Shown here: positions 34,601 to 61,529 of the stretch, piece by piece | Layout of the letters: each line of letters starts with the position of its first letter | Numbering within the stretch: the stretch's first letter is position 1 | From: Negaprion brevirostris | Taxonomy: Eukaryota | Assembly (NCBI GenBank): GCA_030324005.1 | Contig: JARDVH010000031.1 | Span: 50,309,787-50,373,786 of the forward strand | Reading direction: 5' to 3' | Length of the DNA: 64,000 bases | Position numbers and translations under genes: made by a program | The notes under the pieces: generated by a model | Told to the model about the DNA's origin: nothing | Database searches by the model: none | Seen by the model: only the letters and a program-made list of their open reading frames with translations

Positions 34601-34800
34601 GGCCCCTACTCTCCAATGTGCCTTTGTTTATGTGAGCTCCTCTCTTCCACCGGCAGCGTGTAACCAAGTCTCCGAGCGTCAGCGAGCGTCAGCGTGGCCG
34701 AGCCCAATGAGCGCCCGAGGGCTGGGCCCGCACCAGCCGGTTGGCTGCCTCTCACTTTGGTAAATTTCCGAGGTGACGTTAACACTGTGGATTTTTAAAG
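34600..34800 (-). promoter_or_regulatory. NR4A2: NR4A2 proximal promoter
   Basis: Minus strand GCTGACGCTCGCTGACGCTC (two half-CREs, 34674-34693) and CACATAAACAAAGGCACATTGG (34613-34634); CCAAT at 34704-34708; another TGACG at 34774-34778; CpG-rich. Matches the 5' end of mammalian NR4A2 as recalled. Confidence 0.85.
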
Positions 34801-35379
34801 TAGTTGGGGCTTGGCTTGAGGCAACCTTCTCACCTCTTTCAGCATTTCCAAAACAACACGTAGCTGGAATATTCGCCGTTTATAGCTTATCGATCTTATT
34901 GATCACTTGTTTTGGACTTATTTCTACAACGGCAAACTGCGTAACTATTACTTTTCATTTCCGGCATAAAGATCTATTCCATTATTGAATATTTTACCTC
35001 TTATAAATTCTAGCCTGAAAAGGGGAAACCGGGTGAGTGTATTGTTTTAGCATTCAAAGAGCCTCCCCTTTCTGTTTAATTCAGTTTGTATGCTTTAAAC
35101 ACACGCATTTTTCTTTGATGTAAAGTTGCTTAAGAAACACTTACTGGGACGGTGTCCTGCTTTTGGAATGTAAAACATATATAAATATATACGTATAAAA
35201 TCAGCAGGTATTATCACGGATTGCTGGGTGTGTGGGACAATCAAGTTTCGGGTTAACTAAATTTTGAAAGAGCCGCGCTGGTGATTGTGAGGTTAAATAT
35301 TTAATATAGCAGCTCTGTAATATAAAAATTCAATTATTGCATATGTTTATATATTTATTGTATCTATAAATATAATTAC

Positions 35380-46444: not shown

Positions 46445-46740
46445 GAGTAACAATCTTGCTTCTCAGCCGAATAGAAATTTTAAAGATAAAATCCACTAAG
46501 GACAACAATCTTACTCTGAACTCGATTTGGAATTAAAAAGTAAAATCCACTGAAACAGAAAAAAAAATCTACTCTTGACTCGAGTAGGAATTTTAAAGGC
46601 AAAATCTACTAAAACAGAAATAAAGATTAAATCCACTAGAGAGAAAAAATAACAAACTTACTCTTCACTCGAGTAGGAATTTTTAAAAATAAAATCCACT
46701 AAAACCGAGAAAGAAAAAGTAACAAACCCACTCTTCACTC
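46445..46740. repeat. Degenerate 55-85 bp tandem repeat (about 4.3 copies)
   Basis: Recurring AACAA(T/A)CTTACTCTTCACTCGAGTAGGAATTTTAAA..AAAATCCACTAAAAC starting near 46449, 46503, 46567, 46651 and (partial) 46721. Confidence 0.8.
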
Positions 46741-46742
46741 AC

Positions 46743-47260
46743 CGTGAATCGAGATGTGCCGGCAGCACACAGGTTGCACCAGCACCTCTACTCACCCGAA
46801 GCAAAACAGTGGGGTGGCAGCGCTGGAGGAACAGAAAGCTCGGATTCCAGTATCGGTGCAGAAAGAGGGGAAGGGAGGTGGGGAGGGGGGACAGTTGCAG
46901 GCAGCGCGGCTCTAACCCAGCCGCCGCATGCCTGATGCTCAGGCAGCCTCGCAGCGCCCGCCCTGCGCTGGCAGTGGAAGTGCCGGGGCCGGGATAAAGG
47001 CTGCATTGTTGAGCAAGCCACCTCTGTCCCACTCACAGCCGCCCCGAGCTCTCCTAACAAAGCCCGCACCCGCGTCACTCTGGCGTCAATGGAAGCAGGC
47101 TCCGTGACGCAGGCGGGCAGGCTCATCGTCTGCGTCATTCTATAAATAGCTCCATTTGTTTCAGTGCCCAGCTCCCTCTCCCTTCGGCAGCCTTGCTTTT
47201 TCCATTGACGGCAATGTGAGCCGGCCCGGGGGAGGGAAGAGGGATATAGCGAAAGGGGAT
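46743..47260 (-). promoter_or_regulatory. Distal CpG island: candidate alternative NR4A2 promoter/first exon, or an activity-dependent enhancer
   Basis: Five half-CREs (47073, 47084, 47105, 47133, 47206), a consensus MEF2 site CTATAAATAG at 47140-47149, and minus-strand donors ACG|GTGAGT (46743) and CGG|GTGAGT (46796). Confidence 0.65.
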
Positions 47261-47989
47261 CCTCTCTTAACTGACCCTACAATGGAAACACAAAGCTTTT
47301 ACTGCGTGTGCGATGATGCATTGCTGTAATAGCCAACATTATCCTGTCTAGTATTTTCCCAAATTAGAACCAGATGAAGCTATTGGAACAGGCAACTGGA
47401 AAGTTTCAAAAGCATATTTAAAACTTGCTTTTCTTCCACTCATTTTGTGCTGTATCCAAACAACAAACTTTTGAAAGAAAAAGTCCATCCTTTATATTAA
47501 AAATAAATATTTTATATTAAATATGTATATTAAACATTTTGATGTGCCTCGTTACTTTTTTTGTTTCCAAGCGCCGTATAATTGAAAATATTGCACTTCC
47601 GCAAAAGAACCTGTTGCCAAATATTTATAATTCAGGGAGAGTTAGTGGGTTGTCGTTAGCTATTCGAATCTTGGGCACATAGACCTGATCCATTGGTCCC
47701 TCCGTCCTCTCCCAAATCTGCCCACACACTTGGTGTAGACGGCAAATTNNNNNNNNNNNNNNNNNNNNNNNNNNNNNNNNNNNNNNNNNNNNNNNNNNNN
47801 NNNNNNNNNNNNNNNNNNNNNNNNNNNNNNNNNNNNNNNNNNNNNNNNCCCACACACGTGGTGTAGACGGCAAATTTGGGATTATGCACCTTTCTCCCGG
47901 TTCCGAGTGCTAACCAATTCATTATTTCTGTCCCATCATTACAACTTCCCCTTTTGTGCTTAGATCCTTCTCTTGATGGATTTTGCGAT

Positions 47990-51545: not shown

Positions 51546-53484
51546 GGTTCAGCAGAAAGTCAATTTAAAAACAGCAAAAAAGAATAAAGATTCCGTACAT
51601 ACAGATTGGCTTTATTTTCATGTCGTATTGATACAATGTCTGTAAAACATTCCTGATGCCTCATTGTGTACTGATGTTAACTCCAATTTACCTCCAATGC
51701 AAGATATATGCATTGTTAGTATCTGTGTTAGGAATGAGAATGAAATCAAGTGACTTTTCACTGTTTTCATCAGTACTGTTTTCTTGCTGTTCTTCCACAG
51801 CTTTGTCAGGCTGGATTGCTTGGGTATCTGGAAAGAGGAAGGTAGAAGGATAAGATATGCTTTGGGGAGCAGCGGAGGGGGGCAGGGGGGAGGGGGGGAA
51901 CATGTTTATGTCATGTGTAGCTCATAAATCAGAAAGAGGGTACGTGACATTCTGCTCCCATTGCCCTTTGACCATATGCCTGGGGAGATTGTTTCCCCTC
52001 TGCAGGTACAAGACATGTCATCACTTTTCCACGTCCTCCACCAATAAGTTTAGTCTATGGTGTTCCAAAGTCTTTGGAGGCTGCTCACTCCCTTTCAATC
52101 CCAGTCTACCCTTTCCAGGTAAGATTATTTTCAACCACAACTCCCAGCATCTTCTCCATTATAAGAGGGGCAGGCTAACTTTAACTGTTATTAGTCACAC
52201 ACAACAGGCCCCCTTCTCAAGTATCAAGCCTATCAACGAAATGGTCAGCTCCAGATGGCACAGAAGTCATGAAAATAAGCAATCAACCGGCATCACGATC
52301 CCTTTACATGAAAGGGTCGAGAACAGAGGCTAATGGGGCCCAAAGGTACTAGCGAAGGGTGACATGCTGGTTTGCCAACTCTGTTCACAGCACCAGCCAT
52401 TTTTGATGAGGCTGGCTACTCACCCCCACAAAATGGATAACTGATTAAGCTCATTGAGCACCTTCTCAACATCAAATGAGGCCAACTGGAATTGCCCAGT
52501 CTGCCTGACAGTGTGGAGCCAGTTTAACTGCATGGACACCCAGTGGCAAGCCAAGAGGCCAGCCATTCAGGTAGGCCCTGCAGGTCCTCCCAGTCTCGAT
52601 AGGTACACATGCAGCCATGGGTCCTCTGAAGATGGATGGATTTCAGCATGCTCCTTTCAGCTCACTGCACTCACTCACACACACAAACACACACAAACAC
52701 ACACAGCAATGGCCTGCCTGGCTGATTTTTTTTAACATCAAATTTTAAAAATTTGGTGAGAGGACATCTCCATGTTGAAGCTTCCGCTCAGTTACTCCTT
52801 TGCAGGCTGCTGCTCCTTTCATGCTGGAAGGCCTCTGATTGGCTTCCAACTTCAACAGCCCACCCGGCATTCTTAATTGGACAGAGAACCGGTCCCTAAG
52901 CCAGTTAAAACTCTGAAAATGTTGAAGACAATGCAGTCTAATGTCTTAACTTTTCATATTGGAGTATTCAATTCTACACAGAGTAACACATACTATGCCT
53001 AAATATTGTCTTGTACAAATAAATCCAAATCCTTTTGTTTTTGCATGCTGCACATTTATAAATTGGGTTACACAAAATCATAAGCAACAGAGTATAAATG
53101 GACATGTATCAGTTTATAAATGATTATGTCTGTCTATGGAAACTAATATCAGTTGTTTACATATGGAAAAACATTTGGTGAAAAAGGCTGAACTGTTACA
53201 TATTTTATCCCATTATACTGTTATGTGCTGTTAACCCCTTCACTGAGAGATCCTTTCACAAAATTGTCTCCCCTCTTCAAAGAGGCGCTCTTTCCCTATT
53301 TCATGGGAACACTCTTCCTCCAGCCCACCCTGTTTTACAGCAGCACGTTAACCTTCTTGCATCCTCCCTCCACCTCCACTCCCTCAGTGACTACTGTCTT
53401 GATTTCTGCACTTGTTCCTACCTGATGTTGTTGCTTTGCTCTGAGAATGAACTTTCTAGTGTGAGCACACACTACAAGAGTTGA

Positions 53485-57485: not shown

Positions 57486-58252
57486 TGGCATCTCCCACAC
57501 CGCACGCCCCCNNNNNNNNNNNNNNNNNNNNNNNNNNNNNNNNNNNNNNNNCAGAAAACAATCAGATTGAGGTTCTAGCGAAAGTTGCTTCATCCCATCA
57601 GAATCATTTTGGAATTACTAGCCTAGTCTTTGTCCAAGATTTTTCTGAAACAATGAAATAACAGCTGATGTACTTTTGGCAGATTCACACAGGGATTTCT
57701 GGTCCTCTTTGGGCTAGCAAATTATGGATATGATATTGGGCACCTCCAGTATTGGTGCAAAGTGGCACCTCGAAGGCTACATGCGACAAATTATAAATTG
57801 CTAAATATTACTTGTCATAGGGGTATGATTAATCCTCTTTAATAAAAATCTATTTTGAAAACGGTTGAGAATTGTACTATTTATTCTCCAGGTAGGACTG
57901 TCTGAGTTTAAGACACATTCCATAAAGCCTTTACGTACTTGTGTAAATTCACTCCGTTAGAAACTGTAACCCAATTCCAAGATCTAGTCCACAAATAAAA
58001 AATCTTACTTTCCAAATCAAAAACACTTTTATGTATATACAGAGGTAAATTTCTTCTTTTTGGGCACATTGTGTTTGTTTCTTCGTGGCTTTCCTTTGGC
58101 TTTCAAGCAATTTTGAGAGCAAAAAAAATGCCTTCCTCGGGCTTTAATTTTTTTTTATTCATTCATTTTGAGGCCATAATTGTGCATCCTCTGCAATTAA
58201 TTTGCGATAAAGTGGAGCTTCTCATAGAGGACATAAACAAAATACAGCTTCC

Positions 58253-58324
58253 TGGAGATGCCGGGGATTGAACCCGGGACCTCACACATGCGAAGCGCGC
58301 GCTCTACCACTGAGCTACATCCCC
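58253..58324 (-). tRNA. tRNA-Ala (anticodon CGC)
   Basis: GGGGATGTAGCTCAGTGGTAGAGCGCGCGCTTCGCATGTGTGAGGTCCCGGGTTCAATCCCCGGCATCTCCA: 72 nt, full cloverleaf, G3:U70 pair, intact A and B boxes, TTTT terminator at 58239-58242. Confidence 0.98.
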
Positions 58325-58666
58325 AAGCTCGAAAACCTGGCTCTAAATAATGGCTGAAGTGGATTCAAATCGGACATTAGCTGGGGCAATGAGGGACGAG
58401 AGGGCGGGTAGAAATATAATTTTAGTTGATGAAGCCTTCTTGCTGTGTTGATCACTCGGCTGGAGATTTGTCTCTGACAAGTACTGGGCCAACGCCAACC
58501 TTTCACTCCAGGGTCGGTAAGGTTCGCGGGCTTAACTTGCTTCCTTTGATTTGACCGCAACGTAAAAATTGCAAATGTTATCAGCGAGCTTTTTTTTCTA
58601 AAAACAAAGTAGTAAAACGAAGTGATTAATTTGGGCAAAGGAGGGAGGGGGGGAAAAAAATATCAT

Positions 58667-58737
58667 TGCATCGGCCGGGAATCGAACCCGGGCCTCCCGC
58701 GTGGCAGGCGAGAATTCTACCACTGAACCACCGATGC
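58667..58737 (-). tRNA. tRNA-Gly (anticodon GCC)
   Basis: GCATCGGTGGTTCAGTGGTAGAATTCTCGCCTGCCACGCGGGAGGCCCGGGTTCGATTCCCGGCCGATGCA: 71 nt, fully paired stems, T7 terminator at 58654-58660. Confidence 0.98.
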
Positions 58738-58905: not shown

Positions 58906-59140
58906 CAATGAAGTTACTGTGAAAATACCCGAGTCACCACACTCTTCAGGTATGTTCCACATCACGCCTGTTCCACATGGTGCCTCTTCAGGGAGGATTA
59001 AGCATGGCCAACGCACCTAACCTGCACGTCTTCCGGACTGTGGGAGCACCCGGAGGAATCCCACGCAGACATGGGGAGAACGTGCGGACTCCACACAGAC
59101 AGTGACCTAAACCGAGGATCGAACCCAGGCCCCTAGCGCT
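58906..59140 (-). mobile_element. V-SINE, tail type B (partial)
   Basis: CAATGAAGTTACTGTGAAAA...GGGAGCACCCGGAGGAATCCCACGCAGACATGGGGAGAACG. Confidence 0.8.
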
Positions 59141-61529
59141 CGTCAAACTCTGAATTTTCTTGTCAAACCCTGAACTCAATCCAGTCCGAATTTGCTAGAA
59201 GATTCTTTGCTGCTCTGAGTGAGCATGGTGAGGAAAGGAAAACAAAGGAGCCTAGATTGCTAGCTGGGCCCTGATGACTGCGTTCATCAGAAAAAAAAAC
59301 AAAACTCATCGTCCTCCTGGTACCAAGTGGAGGAAGTCTGCAGCTAAAGTAGACACTGTAAATGGGAGAGGCCACACAGGCAAGGCCAAATTAAGGATGC
59401 CAAGGGCTAGTGGCTGAACTGCACTTGGTGCAAGCAATGATGCAAACAGCAGGGCTTTTTTTTTATGAGTTCAAGTTTACAGAGTGTGCAAAATGGAGGA
59501 TGACCAGGAAAACATACTGGAGTAATCAAGTCGAATAGTACCAAAGGCTTCCAAGCAGCGCTTGTGCTGAAGCACTGGAGCAAAAGATGGGCAATATTAT
59601 GGAGGTGGTCATTGCACATAATGGAGTGGATATGGGGTCAGAAGCTCATCTCAGGGCTAGATAGGACAGCAAGGTGAGGTTCAGCCTGAGATGGCGATCG
59701 AATCAGTGGATAGAAAGCGGAGTCTGGGATGAGGACTGAAGACTTTCACCTTTCTATTATTTAATTGGAGGAAATTTCTGCTCATCCAATACTGGGGGTC
59801 AGATAAGCAGCGTGACAATTAACCAGAAGAAGTGGAATCATATGAAAGAAATGGGTAACTGACAGATTACTGAGCAATATTAAAATAGTTTAGGATGAAG
59901 CGGAGTGACCGAGGGGTTTTATTAGACTTGGCACTTGATATATCCAATCACTGGAAAGCAGCAATTAATAAAGTAAATAGACAGCTGATTTAAAATAATG
60001 TAAATGCTATAGGTTCACATCCATTATGTGAATACATGGGAACAAACTTCAGTTGTAACTCTTTTCAGAACTGCATAAACAGCAGGGCATAATTTGCAAT
60101 GCATATGCAGAGACCGTATGAAAATATTTTACATGTTAGTGTTAGACATTGNNNNNNNNNNGAACAAGATCATGGTCAAAGAGATGGGCCTCACATACCA
60201 ATCAGCAGCATTTACAAATGACAATTAGTGTCTTGAGAATCTGCTGCGCGTGTCTGAATTTGATGTTCTTAGATCCAAGTTCCACCTGACAGCATTGTTT
60301 CAATCTTTGGCAAGAGCTGCGGATAGAAAAGTAATCAGGTAAAAATTATGTCAAGATTAGGAATTTCCACCTGTATCATGTGACAGCCCCAGAGCAAAGC
60401 ACAAGGTATGGAACTGCTGCTCTACCATTACCATATAATTGAAGGTTTTTGAATGACTGTTGTGTTTCTTCCTCTGTGAAATTATTAAGATCTTTTGCAT
60501 GGCAGTGCAGGCTACAATAATCTCAGAGACCTGAGGTGGACTAGATTTTAACATTCCCTTGATCTATCCAAGCATTGGGATCAATGTCCCTGGGTATCAA
60601 TGGTGTGCTTCAGTAACACATAATGAATTTAGTGGTACAGTATATACTGCACACTCAGGAATCCAACCACACATTATAGATTGTAGGTTCTTTCCTCCTT
60701 TTAGCTGCCTTCTAAAATAAATATAATTCAATTACTGGTTTTGCTAAGCAAAGTGTTGGTAAATTTCATGGTAGAAAAAAGTGTGTTCTAAAGATTGGTA
60801 GGTCTGACAAAGATAGCGTAGAATCGGTTACCTCAACATTACTGCAAACTTTAAAGAAACTAACAGAGCTGTCCTTCTCCTGGAACAGGCAATGTATCTG
60901 ACTGGGAATGTACCTACTTCACTTGTGGCATTCTTTCAACAAACATTGTCATGCAGGCAGGTTTTTTGAATAATTTGAGTTCCAAATGTCTGGTGGTTGT
61001 ACATAAAAAGCACCATACAGGTAGATCTTAGAAAGAAAGAACAACACAGCACGGGAAACAGGCCCTTCGGCCCAACGAGCCCACGCCGCCGTCCCATTGT
61101 CAGTNNNNNNNNNNNNNNNNNNNNNNNNNNNNNNNNNNNNNNNNNNNNNNNNNNNNNNNNNNNNNNNNNNNNNNNNNNNNNNNNNNNNNNNNNNNNNNNN
61201 NNNNGTCAGTGAACTTAGAAGAAAGTGATCCTCTTTCCATCTTCTCAAATCCCAAAGCTAGAGTACAATCAGCCAGTCCTCTGCTGCCTGCAGGTTGTGG
61301 GGAGGGGTGTTTAAAAAGGATGTTTAAAATGCAAGCACTGCTGTTCAGCATATCTCTCGTACCCACCCAGCGTACTTCTCCTAATCATCTTCCTTTCCTC
61401 TCAAATATGGATTCAGAGGGGTGCTCTTATAGGATAATTGTAGCTGTAGCTTCAGCTGTACAAACGTGGATTTAACATTGTTTTATAACACTGTCAGAAA
61501 GACAACAGTAATTTTCCCCATTACACAAA

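What the first reader, a model, noticed from the sequence alone, without database searches (positions are those of the whole stretch)
58253..58737. tRNA-Ala(CGC) and tRNA-Gly(GCC) pair upstream of NR4A2, probably an anciently syntenic locus
Seen: two intact Pol III genes 342 bp apart, about 24 kb upstream of the NR4A2 start. Recalled: human has an Ala-CGC/Gly-GCC pair a few hundred bp apart between NR4A2 and GPD2, and the Ala sequence here appears identical to that human isodecoder (arm GCGCGC-TTCGCAT-GTGTGA). tRNA gene positions usually turn over quickly, so keeping the position, partner and isodecoder since the shark/bony-vertebrate split would be unusual. Inference: the locus could have a position-dependent role, such as a TFIIIC-bound boundary of the NR4A2 regulatory domain or co-regulation with it. 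Both genes are on the minus strand here, whereas I recall opposite strands in human, which would imply a local inversion.
Basis: partly seen in the sequence, partly recalled or inferred. Interest (0 to 1): 0.7.

Follow-up and report, generated by a model that had tools for sequence, protein, structure and literature searches.

The report
Ancient anchored tRNA pair beside NR4A2
Two intact shark tRNA genes sit between NR4A2 and GPD2, matching a pair in human, mouse and chicken, so the site likely predates the shark/bony-vertebrate split; it is most likely one of several long-lived housekeeping tRNA sites kept for tRNA supply, and nothing here shows that it controls NR4A2.

Summary
tRNA-Ala(CGC) 58253-58324 and tRNA-Gly(GCC) 58667-58737 are intact, both on the minus strand and 342 bp apart. 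They lie between NR4A2 (minus) and GPD2 (plus) in a shark genome. Published tables show an Ala-CGC/Gly-GCC pair in human, mouse and chicken, convergent and 244-306 bp apart, so Ala has flipped in one lineage. The Ala gene is the only one of its type in this assembly, and its cloverleaf energy equals that of human Ala-CGC-3-1. The Gly differs from the human one by a compensatory base pair. The depth is not peculiar to NR4A2: 3 of 7 other human tRNA sites checked also hold matching tRNAs in this shark, 2 showed none in gappy sequence, and 2 were untestable. Best reading: an anchored housekeeping tRNA locus kept by selection for supply. A boundary or co-regulation role is untested and weakly opposed (flip, fast-evolving mammalian flanks, no CTCF consensus). 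The scan noted a similar case (Thr-CGT beside miR-193/365) in another genome, but not this pair.

The parts
58253..58324 (-). tRNA-Ala(CGC) gene: G3:U70 acceptor pair, anticodon stem with two G:U pairs (G28:U42, G30:U40); likely identical to human Ala-CGC-3-1 and mouse Ala-CGC-2-1
   Evidence: 64.8 bits; single exact copy in G000; constrained cloverleaf energy -27.6 kcal/mol equals the published value for the human and mouse genes; pairs read from the sequence
58667..58737 (-). tRNA-Gly(GCC) gene with a C5:G68 acceptor pair in place of the common U5:A68
   Evidence: 66.7 bits; the only exact copy among 40 scored of 106 candidates; two differences from L017 and energy -28.2 against -26.4 for L017 and human Gly-GCC-2-2
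58325..58666 (.). 342-bp CpG-rich spacer holding the Gly trailer and terminator and the Ala 5' flank
   Evidence: CpG o/e 0.84, rank 14 of 649 gap-poor 342-bp bins (median 0.23) over window plus 200 kb; unique in 1.25 Mb of fetched DNA; about 250 bp covered at about 96% identity by contigs of 2 of 4 other runs laid (organisms B and D)
58654..58660 (-). T7 Pol III terminator-like run after Gly
58239..58242 (-). T4 Pol III terminator-like run after Ala; its side agrees with the minus-strand orientation of Ala
58264..58274 (-). B box of the Ala gene
58678..58688 (-). B box of the Gly gene
28640..32071 (-). NR4A2 coding exons (left anchor); ATG at 32071
33751..35000 (-). likely NR4A2 promoter and first exon (CpG-rich, CRE-like motifs at 34681-34691)
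   Evidence: the start site is inferred, not mapped
58906..59160 (-). repeat with a tRNA-like B box (SINE-like); a neighbour, not part of the pair
   Evidence: 113 matches in 1.25 Mb; B box at 59125 and a weak tRNA-like call only at relaxed score

Best explanation
This is a pair of intact tRNA genes between NR4A2 and GPD2 that likely descends from the same locus as the human, mouse and chicken pair, and it is likely kept in place because it is a constitutively active housekeeping source of tRNA, not because it acts on NR4A2. Shown: the genes, their place and order, single-copy Ala, the strand difference, and three more human tRNA sites with matching tRNAs in this shark. Inferred: TFIIIC binds the internal A and B boxes, TFIIIB and Pol III load, and each gene ends at its own T-run. 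Losing the only canonical-type Ala-CGC gene would be selected against. A new copy elsewhere would rarely land in permissive CpG-rich chromatin, so the old site persists. The conserved NR4A2 regulatory block around it likely also suppresses rearrangement. An inversion of the Ala gene happened in one lineage; which state is ancestral is not known.
For: Orthology. Shark order is NR4A2(-), Ala, Gly, GPD2(+): GPD2 exons at ext 189270 and 204509 and DAO_C exons 191 kb right of the pair. ARAGORN at default score finds only these two genes in the window; at relaxed score the window plus 200 kb gives four further, weak calls. Human chr2 Ala-CGC-3-1(+)/Gly-GCC-2-2(-) lie 34 kb from ENSG00000115159 (GPD2, name recalled). 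Mouse chr2 pair. Chicken chr7 pair; an Ala-CGC with the same Cove score 73.12 occurs in 4 of the 7 bird tables. Housekeeping status: both human genes carry Pol III in all four cell types and both mouse genes are listed as active; the shark spacer is CpG-rich, a correlate of activity in PMC6961574. Supply: 1 match genome-wide to the canonical-type Ala-CGC pattern; the only other Ala-CGC seen is a deviant gene of the other Ala type in a cluster. Selection on the RNA: compensatory C5:G68 in Gly, and C29:G41 in Ala relative to Ala-TGC. Class: Tyr+Ala pair 9 kb after TMEM214, Ala-TGC at the 3' side of a DHX37-like helicase and 80 kb from BRI3BP, two Tyr genes 13-17 kb before a TRIM54/55-type RING exon near CRH. 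NR4A2 is classed as a long-range regulatory-block target (PMC3923872).
Against: Transcription in shark is not shown. Only 3 of 7 control sites were positive, and two of the three were looked up after the shark tRNA had been seen; of the 5 chosen from human or chicken knowledge, 1 was positive (CRH), 2 showed no tRNA in sequence with 14-15% N (VAC14, DPP9) and 2 were untestable. Gly-GCC is multi-copy in this shark (106 candidates), so supply explains the Gly less well than the Ala. Human keeps two other housekeeping Ala-CGC genes, yet still keeps this one. Collapsed tRNA arrays or gaps could hide further Ala-CGC copies. That the mouse and chicken pairs lie between NR4A2 and GPD2 is recalled, not shown by a call. 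No frog, teleost, gar, chimaera or lamprey positions were obtained. Human Ala-CGC-3 transcript is highest in neurons (log2 14.8-15.0 against 13.4 in hiPSC and 14.1 in cardiomyocytes), which a pure housekeeping reading does not predict.
Confidence: 0.62

Rival explanations
1. [quoted passage not shown]
For: Position and partner kept in shark and three amniotes. About 24 kb from the likely NR4A2 promoter in shark, similar to the 30 kb between Arg-TCT-4-1 and CADM3. Human Ala-CGC-3 is highest in neurons, and Pol III share rises 2.2-fold (Ala) and 3.6-fold (Gly) from hiPSC to neurons, while Ala-CGC-1-1 does not rise.
Against: Similar rises occur at unrelated housekeeping genes (Ala-AGC-8-1 2.7x, Tyr-GTA-2-1 3.1x, Gly-TCC-1-1 3.7x). 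5' flanks have negative PhyloP in human and mouse, unlike the 99% conserved 140 bp before Arg-TCT-4-1. Gao et al. name only Arg-TCT-4-1 and Lys-TTT-3-1/3-2 as co-regulated in the section read. Relative orientation is not kept. The nearest CTCF-consensus matches (up to 2 mismatches, recalled motif) are at 52248 and 63374. Equally old tRNA sites lie beside TMEM214 and DHX37/BRI3BP, which are not known developmental regulators (recalled).
Confidence: 0.15
2. Passenger of a genomic regulatory block: the genes need only stay functional, and their place survives because rearrangements in the NR4A2-GPD2 interval are selected against for the sake of NR4A2 enhancers.
For: NR4A2 is in the regulatory-block cluster of PMC3923872; NR4A2-GPD2 linkage is intact in shark; tRNA relocation is thought to be tied in part to chromosomal rearrangement (PMC2888827).
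Against: A block protects against breakage but not against decay of a redundant 72-bp gene. Ala is apparently unchanged and Gly changed only by a compensatory pair. Other retained sites lie beside housekeeping genes. This reading complements the best one more than it opposes it.
Confidence: 0.12
3. Isodecoder-specific function: the Ala-CGC-3 molecule, with two G:U pairs in its anticodon stem, does something other Ala-CGC genes cannot, for example in neurons, and this holds the locus.
For: Sequence apparently unchanged from shark to mammals and same Cove score in 4 bird tables; kept in human beside two other active Ala-CGC genes; neuron-high transcript.
Against: Syntenic tRNAs usually keep identical sequence anyway (nematode tRNA-Ala, PMC2888827); Gao et al. 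report minor effects of isodecoder diversity on decoding speed; it does not explain the Gly partner.
Confidence: 0.08
4. Coincidence or artefact: independent insertions, or a mis-assembled orientation.
For: Orientation and the Gly sequence differ from amniotes; the pair lies on a 1,238-bp gap-free piece between two gaps; contigs from other runs do not bridge to the Ala gene.
Against: Chance of about 6e-5 for the single Ala gene alone; both genes are on one gap-free piece; the T-run sits on the side expected for minus-strand Ala; order matches human.
Confidence: 0.03

Closest known systems
Human tRNA-Ala-CGC-3-1 / tRNA-Gly-GCC-2-2 (chr2:156.40 Mb), mouse Ala-CGC-2-1 / Gly-GCC-2-2, chicken chr7:36.24 Mb pair (supplement tables of PMC10791582, PMC6961574, PMC8044555)
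   Same: Same two anticodons, same order, spacer of a few hundred bases, GPD2 as right neighbour in human (name recalled), equal cloverleaf energy for Ala
   Different: Tandem in shark, convergent in 3 of 3 amniotes; spacer 342 against 244-306 bp; shark Gly has C5:G68; GPD2 exons located in shark start 130 kb or more away (promoter not located) against 34 kb in human
Housekeeping or 'core' tRNA genes (Gao 2024, PMC10791582: passages, section 14, supplement rows; Thornlow 2020, PMC6961574: passages, supplement rows)
   Same: Dispersed, CpG-rich, near another tRNA gene; the human orthologues are classed housekeeping
   Different: Those sets were defined in human cells or placental mammals; here the place is traced to a shark
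Ancient syntenic tDNAs of Bermudez-Santana 2010 (PMC2888827, passages)
   Same: A minority of loci resist turnover: 77 human-Xenopus synteny associations
   Different: The two loci they inspected were absent from stickleback, lamprey and lancelet; no shark was examined in the passages read
tRNA-Arg-TCT-4-1 beside CADM3 (PMC10791582, section 14)
   Same: Vertebrate-wide synteny with a neuronal gene about 25-30 kb away; neuron-high transcript
   Different: Arg-TCT-4-1 has a 99% conserved 140-bp upstream flank, a predicted enhancer and strong neuron selectivity; this pair has fast-evolving mammalian flanks and occupancy in all four cell types
Somatic-type solitary tRNA genes of zebrafish (bioRxiv 10.1101/869651, passages)
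   Same: Single genes or small clusters against large maternal-type arrays; this shark also has an array-like Gly class (10 of 30 loci share an upstream motif)
   Different: Stage of expression is untested in shark
Human tDNA insulators (Raab et al. 2012; recalled, paper not held)
   Same: B-box genes that would bind TFIIIC, between two Pol II genes
   Different: Recalled examples are multi-gene clusters tested in reporter assays; no insulation evidence exists here

Membership tests
Functional type-2 Pol III tRNA gene | Full cloverleaf with standard anticodon | tested here: met
   64.8 and 66.7 bits, full model length
Functional type-2 Pol III tRNA gene | Internal A and B boxes and downstream T-run | tested here: met
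   B boxes; T4 and T7; A box read from the sequence
Functional type-2 Pol III tRNA gene | Transcribed, Pol III-bound in shark | not testable with these tools
   no shark ChIP or tRNA-seq available; CpG-rich spacer is only a correlate
Orthologue of the human Ala-CGC-3-1/Gly-GCC-2-2 locus | Between NR4A2 and GPD2, order NR4A2-Ala-Gly-GPD2 | tested here: met
   shark; human coordinates and nearest gene id: (gene name and NR4A2 position recalled)
Orthologue of the human Ala-CGC-3-1/Gly-GCC-2-2 locus | Ala sequence identical to the human isodecoder | tested here: inconclusive
   equal constrained energy -27.6, method calibrated on Gly (-26.4); no human sequence was available for a letter-by-letter comparison (searches found none)
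Orthologue of the human Ala-CGC-3-1/Gly-GCC-2-2 locus | Gly sequence identical to human Gly-GCC-2 | tested here: not met
   energy -28.2 against -26.4; two compensatory differences from the L017 type
Orthologue of the human Ala-CGC-3-1/Gly-GCC-2-2 locus | Convergent orientation | tested here: not met
   tandem here; convergent in human, mouse, chicken
Enhancer-overlapping co-regulated tRNA (Arg-TCT-4-1/CADM3 type) | Synteny with the partner gene across vertebrates | tested here: met
   (mouse and chicken neighbours recalled)
Enhancer-overlapping co-regulated tRNA (Arg-TCT-4-1/CADM3 type) | Highly conserved upstream flank | tested here: not met
   5' flank PhyloP -2.47 and -4.05 (human), -2.43 and -4.35 (mouse)
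Enhancer-overlapping co-regulated tRNA (Arg-TCT-4-1/CADM3 type) | Neuron-selective Pol III occupancy | tested here: inconclusive
   2.2x and 3.6x rise in neurons, within the range of some other housekeeping genes but above others
tDNA insulator / TFIIIC boundary (features recalled) | TFIIIC occupancy and insulation at a domain edge | not testable with these tools
   no ChIP or Hi-C data
tDNA insulator / TFIIIC boundary (features recalled) | Adjacent CTCF site | tested here: inconclusive
   no consensus match between 52248 and 63374 at up to 2 mismatches; a consensus scan misses real sites, and gaps flank the pair
tDNA insulator / TFIIIC boundary (features recalled) | Enhancer-blocking or barrier activity in an assay | not testable with these tools
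   needs reporter or deletion experiments

The most novel reading that the evidence does not exclude
Jawed vertebrates share a fixed skeleton of anchored tRNA sites, some possibly ohnologues from the early genome duplications (Tyr/Ala near TMEM214 and near TRIM55-CRH), and at NR4A2 the anchored pair is itself part of the gene's regulatory domain, as a TFIIIC boundary or a neuron-active shared element that works in either orientation.
Probability: 0.13. Interest if true: 0.78.

Novelty: new member of a known kind. Interest (0 to 1): 0.45.

Why it matters
tRNA gene positions are reported to turn over about as fast as unconstrained sequence (PMC2888827), and only 5.5% of flycatcher tRNA genes were traced to the deepest node of a sauropsid alignment (PMC8044555). 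This pair and three more sites in one shark assembly suggest that a subset of housekeeping tRNA sites has stayed in place since the last common ancestor of jawed vertebrates (about 450 million years, date recalled). That gives a short, testable list for the open question of why some tRNA genes cannot move: supply, chromatin context, or a positional role. A single-copy Ala-CGC gene beside a neurodevelopmental disease gene (NR4A2, recalled) is a clean deletion-and-rescue target. As it stands this extends a known class and shows no new mechanism.

Tried and rejected
Papers: 10 of 10 searches used. NR4A2+GPD2+tRNA gave 6 papers, none about this pair by title or start of abstract (listing only). 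Searches on shark or vertebrate tRNA synteny listed no paper on it (listings only); subscription papers are not covered. The Ala anticodon-arm motif was in no main text and in neither of two supplements searched (one file of the second was not searched). Raab 2012 and Kutter 2011 are not held, so statements on them are recalled. The zebrafish supplement of PMC11417395 was unreadable; that of PMC11574265 gave isodecoder names only; bioRxiv supplements are closed; Thornlow's ortholog table was not among the files searched. These unseen files may bear on presence of the pair in teleosts and across 29 mammals. Sequencing runs: no RNA holder listed. The spacer was covered by contigs in 2 of 4 runs laid, neither reaching the Ala gene; the left flank got only short chance pieces; with no neutral baseline the 96% identity says nothing on constraint. 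Control sites without a positive: VAC14, 0 tRNA in 200 kb, 14% N, 5' end not located; DPP9, 0 in 150 kb, promoter island beside a 3.6-kb gap; TMPO orthologue on a 1,473-bp contig; NDUFS7 marker not found. My guess that the C1 Gly pair (L017/L018) was the VAC14 pair was wrong. AGBL5 and UBC were not identified beside their shark tRNA sites. No inverted repeat flanking the Ala gene marks an inversion breakpoint. Unconstrained folding does not return the full cloverleaf (z about -2) and was not used. Rejected: SINE or pseudogene origin of the pair (full-length, terminators, single copy); chance pairing.

Full report
1. The observation. ARAGORN and Rfam find two and only two tRNA genes in the window: Ala(CGC) at 58253-58324 and Gly(GCC) at 58667-58737, both on the minus strand, full length, 64.8 and 66.7 bits. 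They are 342 bp apart. Each has a B box and a T-run shortly after its 3' end (T4 at +11, T7 at +7). The spacer is CpG-rich (o/e 0.84, rank 14 of 649 bins, median 0.23). Both genes lie on one gap-free 1,238-bp piece between two assembly gaps. Their relative orientation therefore does not depend on scaffolding, but the orientation of the whole piece does.

2. The neighbours. The minus-strand nuclear receptor at 28640-32071 is NR4A2 (Pfam zf-C4 and Hormone_recep; best match NURR1). CRE-like motifs at 34681-34691 mark the likely promoter, about 24 kb from the Ala gene. To the right, the only DAO_C matches in the genome are two plus-strand exons 191 kb from the pair, and FAD-domain exons of the same enzyme lie 130 and 146 kb from it. 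This is GPD2. At relaxed score the window plus 200 kb gives four further, weak tRNA-like calls, one of them inside a repeat. The genome is a shark's: the ten best matches to its CRH precursor are all cartilaginous fishes.

3. Other vertebrates. Human hg38 chr2 has Ala-CGC-3-1 (+) at 156400768-840 and Gly-GCC-2-2 (-) at 156401146-217, 34 kb from ENSG00000115159 (GPD2; name recalled); both are housekeeping, with Pol III peaks in all four cell types (PMC10791582 supplement rows). Mouse chr2 has Ala-CGC-2-1 (+) and Gly-GCC-2-2 (-), 244 bp apart, both active (PMC6961574 supplement rows). Chicken chr7 has Ala-CGC (+) and Gly-GCC (-), 249 bp apart (PMC8044555 Table S4). That the mouse and chicken pairs lie between NR4A2 and GPD2 is recalled. 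So 3 of 3 amniotes examined are convergent and the shark is tandem; inverting Ala alone converts one into the other. No frog, teleost, chimaera or lamprey position could be obtained, so the ancestral state is open.

4. The molecules. The constrained cloverleaf energy of the shark Ala is -27.6 kcal/mol, the value published for the human and mouse genes. The same calculation gives -26.4 for the common shark Gly-GCC, the value published for human Gly-GCC-2-2. This supports identity of the Ala indirectly; no letter-by-letter comparison was possible. The window's Gly gives -28.2 and differs from the common type by a compensatory U5:A68 to C5:G68 change, so the isodecoder is kept for Ala only. The Ala anticodon stem has two G:U pairs. 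The Ala gene has one exact copy among 13 matches and is the only match to a canonical-type Ala-CGC pattern; the one other Ala-CGC seen is a deviant gene of the other Ala type in a cluster. Gly-GCC is multi-copy (106 candidates, 40 scored), and 10 of the 30 loci fetched share an upstream motif and look like an array class. Collapsed arrays make all counts lower bounds.

5. Is the depth special to NR4A2? I checked seven other human tRNA sites. Positive, 3 of 7: (a) an intron-containing Tyr-GTA and an Ala-AGC in tandem 9 kb after TMEM214, matching human Tyr-GTA-2-1 and Ala-AGC-8-1 in ENSG00000084693 (AGBL5 and its neighbour TMEM214 recalled); (b) an Ala-TGC at the 3' side of a DHX37-like helicase, 80 kb from BRI3BP, matching the UBC-BRI3BP cluster described in birds and human Ala-TGC-3-2, though without the Asp and Phe genes; (c) two Tyr-GTA genes 13-17 kb before a TRIM54/55-type RING exon near CRH, matching human Tyr-GTA-5-1/5-2 (position near TRIM55 recalled), without the Ala. 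Sites (a) and (b) were looked up after the shark tRNA had been seen; (c) was predicted. No tRNA seen, 2 of 7: VAC14 and DPP9, both in sequence with 14-15% N. Untestable, 2 of 7: TMPO and NDUFS7. Deep retention is thus a property of some dispersed tRNA sites, including ones beside ordinary genes, but its frequency is not measured.

6. How it most likely works. Shown: intact genes, order, strand difference, single-copy Ala, compensatory changes. Inferred from the established type-2 promoter mechanism: TFIIIC binds the A and B boxes, TFIIIB and Pol III load, and each gene ends at its own T-run. Inferred for persistence: the site is a constitutive source of tRNA, loss of the only canonical-type Ala-CGC gene is selected against, and new copies rarely gain active chromatin. 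The NR4A2 regulatory block (PMC3923872) likely also shelters the interval from breakage. I put this at 0.62. The positional reading (0.15) has some support: human Ala-CGC-3 is highest in neurons, and Pol III share rises 2.2-fold and 3.6-fold there while Ala-CGC-1-1 stays flat. Against it, three unrelated housekeeping genes rise 2.7- to 3.7-fold, the mammalian flanks evolve fast, orientation is not kept, and no CTCF consensus lies near. Passenger of the block (0.12), isodecoder-specific function (0.08) and artefact (0.03) follow.

7. Comparison with what is known. It works like a housekeeping or core tRNA locus (PMC10791582, PMC6961574) and resembles the solitary somatic-type genes of zebrafish (bioRxiv 10.1101/869651, passages). 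A minority of ancient syntenic tDNAs is known: 77 human-Xenopus associations, the two inspected being absent from stickleback and lamprey (PMC2888827, passages). The closest case with a positional proposal is Arg-TCT-4-1 beside CADM3, whose conserved flank this pair lacks, so I do not file it there. Membership among tDNA insulators could not be tested.

8. Verdict. A real, very old tRNA locus, orthologous to the amniote pair with high probability, with a lineage-specific flip of the Ala gene. It is a new and deeper member of a known kind. The NR4A2 boundary idea remains a testable minority reading. Interest 0.45.

Noticed in passing
G000:C25:75065111-75065551 (L076, L118) and G000:C59:65124577-65128653: Tyr+Ala pair after TMEM214 (a urocortin-like gene lies 3.8 Mb away on the same contig) and two Tyr genes before a TRIM54/55-type gene near CRH. 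The two sites may be ohnologous tRNA loci from the early vertebrate genome duplications.
   Followed up: partly
G000:C133:19516862-19516934 (L002): Single Ala-TGC beside a DHX37-like helicase and BRI3BP, the place of the human and bird UBC-BRI3BP cluster; no Asp or Phe genes in 200 kb.
   Followed up: partly
L002, L003 (C31:39585502), L004 (C25:70995993): Three identical Ala-TGC genes on three contigs, each alone; L004 is 225 kb from a urocortin-like gene. Neighbours of L003 were not identified.
   Followed up: partly
L012/L068 (G000:C59:35.34 Mb): Cluster of three similar Ala genes with three different anticodons (CGC, TGC, AGC) plus Met; looks like anticodon shift after local duplication.
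   Followed up: no
L021, L022, L024-L028, L031, L035, L039: Gly-GCC copies sharing an upstream motif, mostly on small contigs and often 350-500 bp from an Asn gene; likely a collapsed tandem-array class, possibly maternal-type.
   Followed up: partly
L072 (G000:C73:86.95 Mb): Ala-AGC and Val-AAC pair about 580 bp apart, with a second identical Ala-AGC 16 kb away on the other strand.
   Followed up: no
window 46501-47500 and 24001-25250: CpG-rich non-coding patches upstream and downstream of NR4A2; candidate enhancers or non-coding promoters.
   Followed up: no
window 58906-59160: Abundant SINE-like repeat with a B box on the same strand, about 170 bp beyond the Gly 5' end across a gap.
   Followed up: partly
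L098-L102: Five CRF-family precursor genes on five contigs (CRH confirmed for L100).
   Followed up: partly
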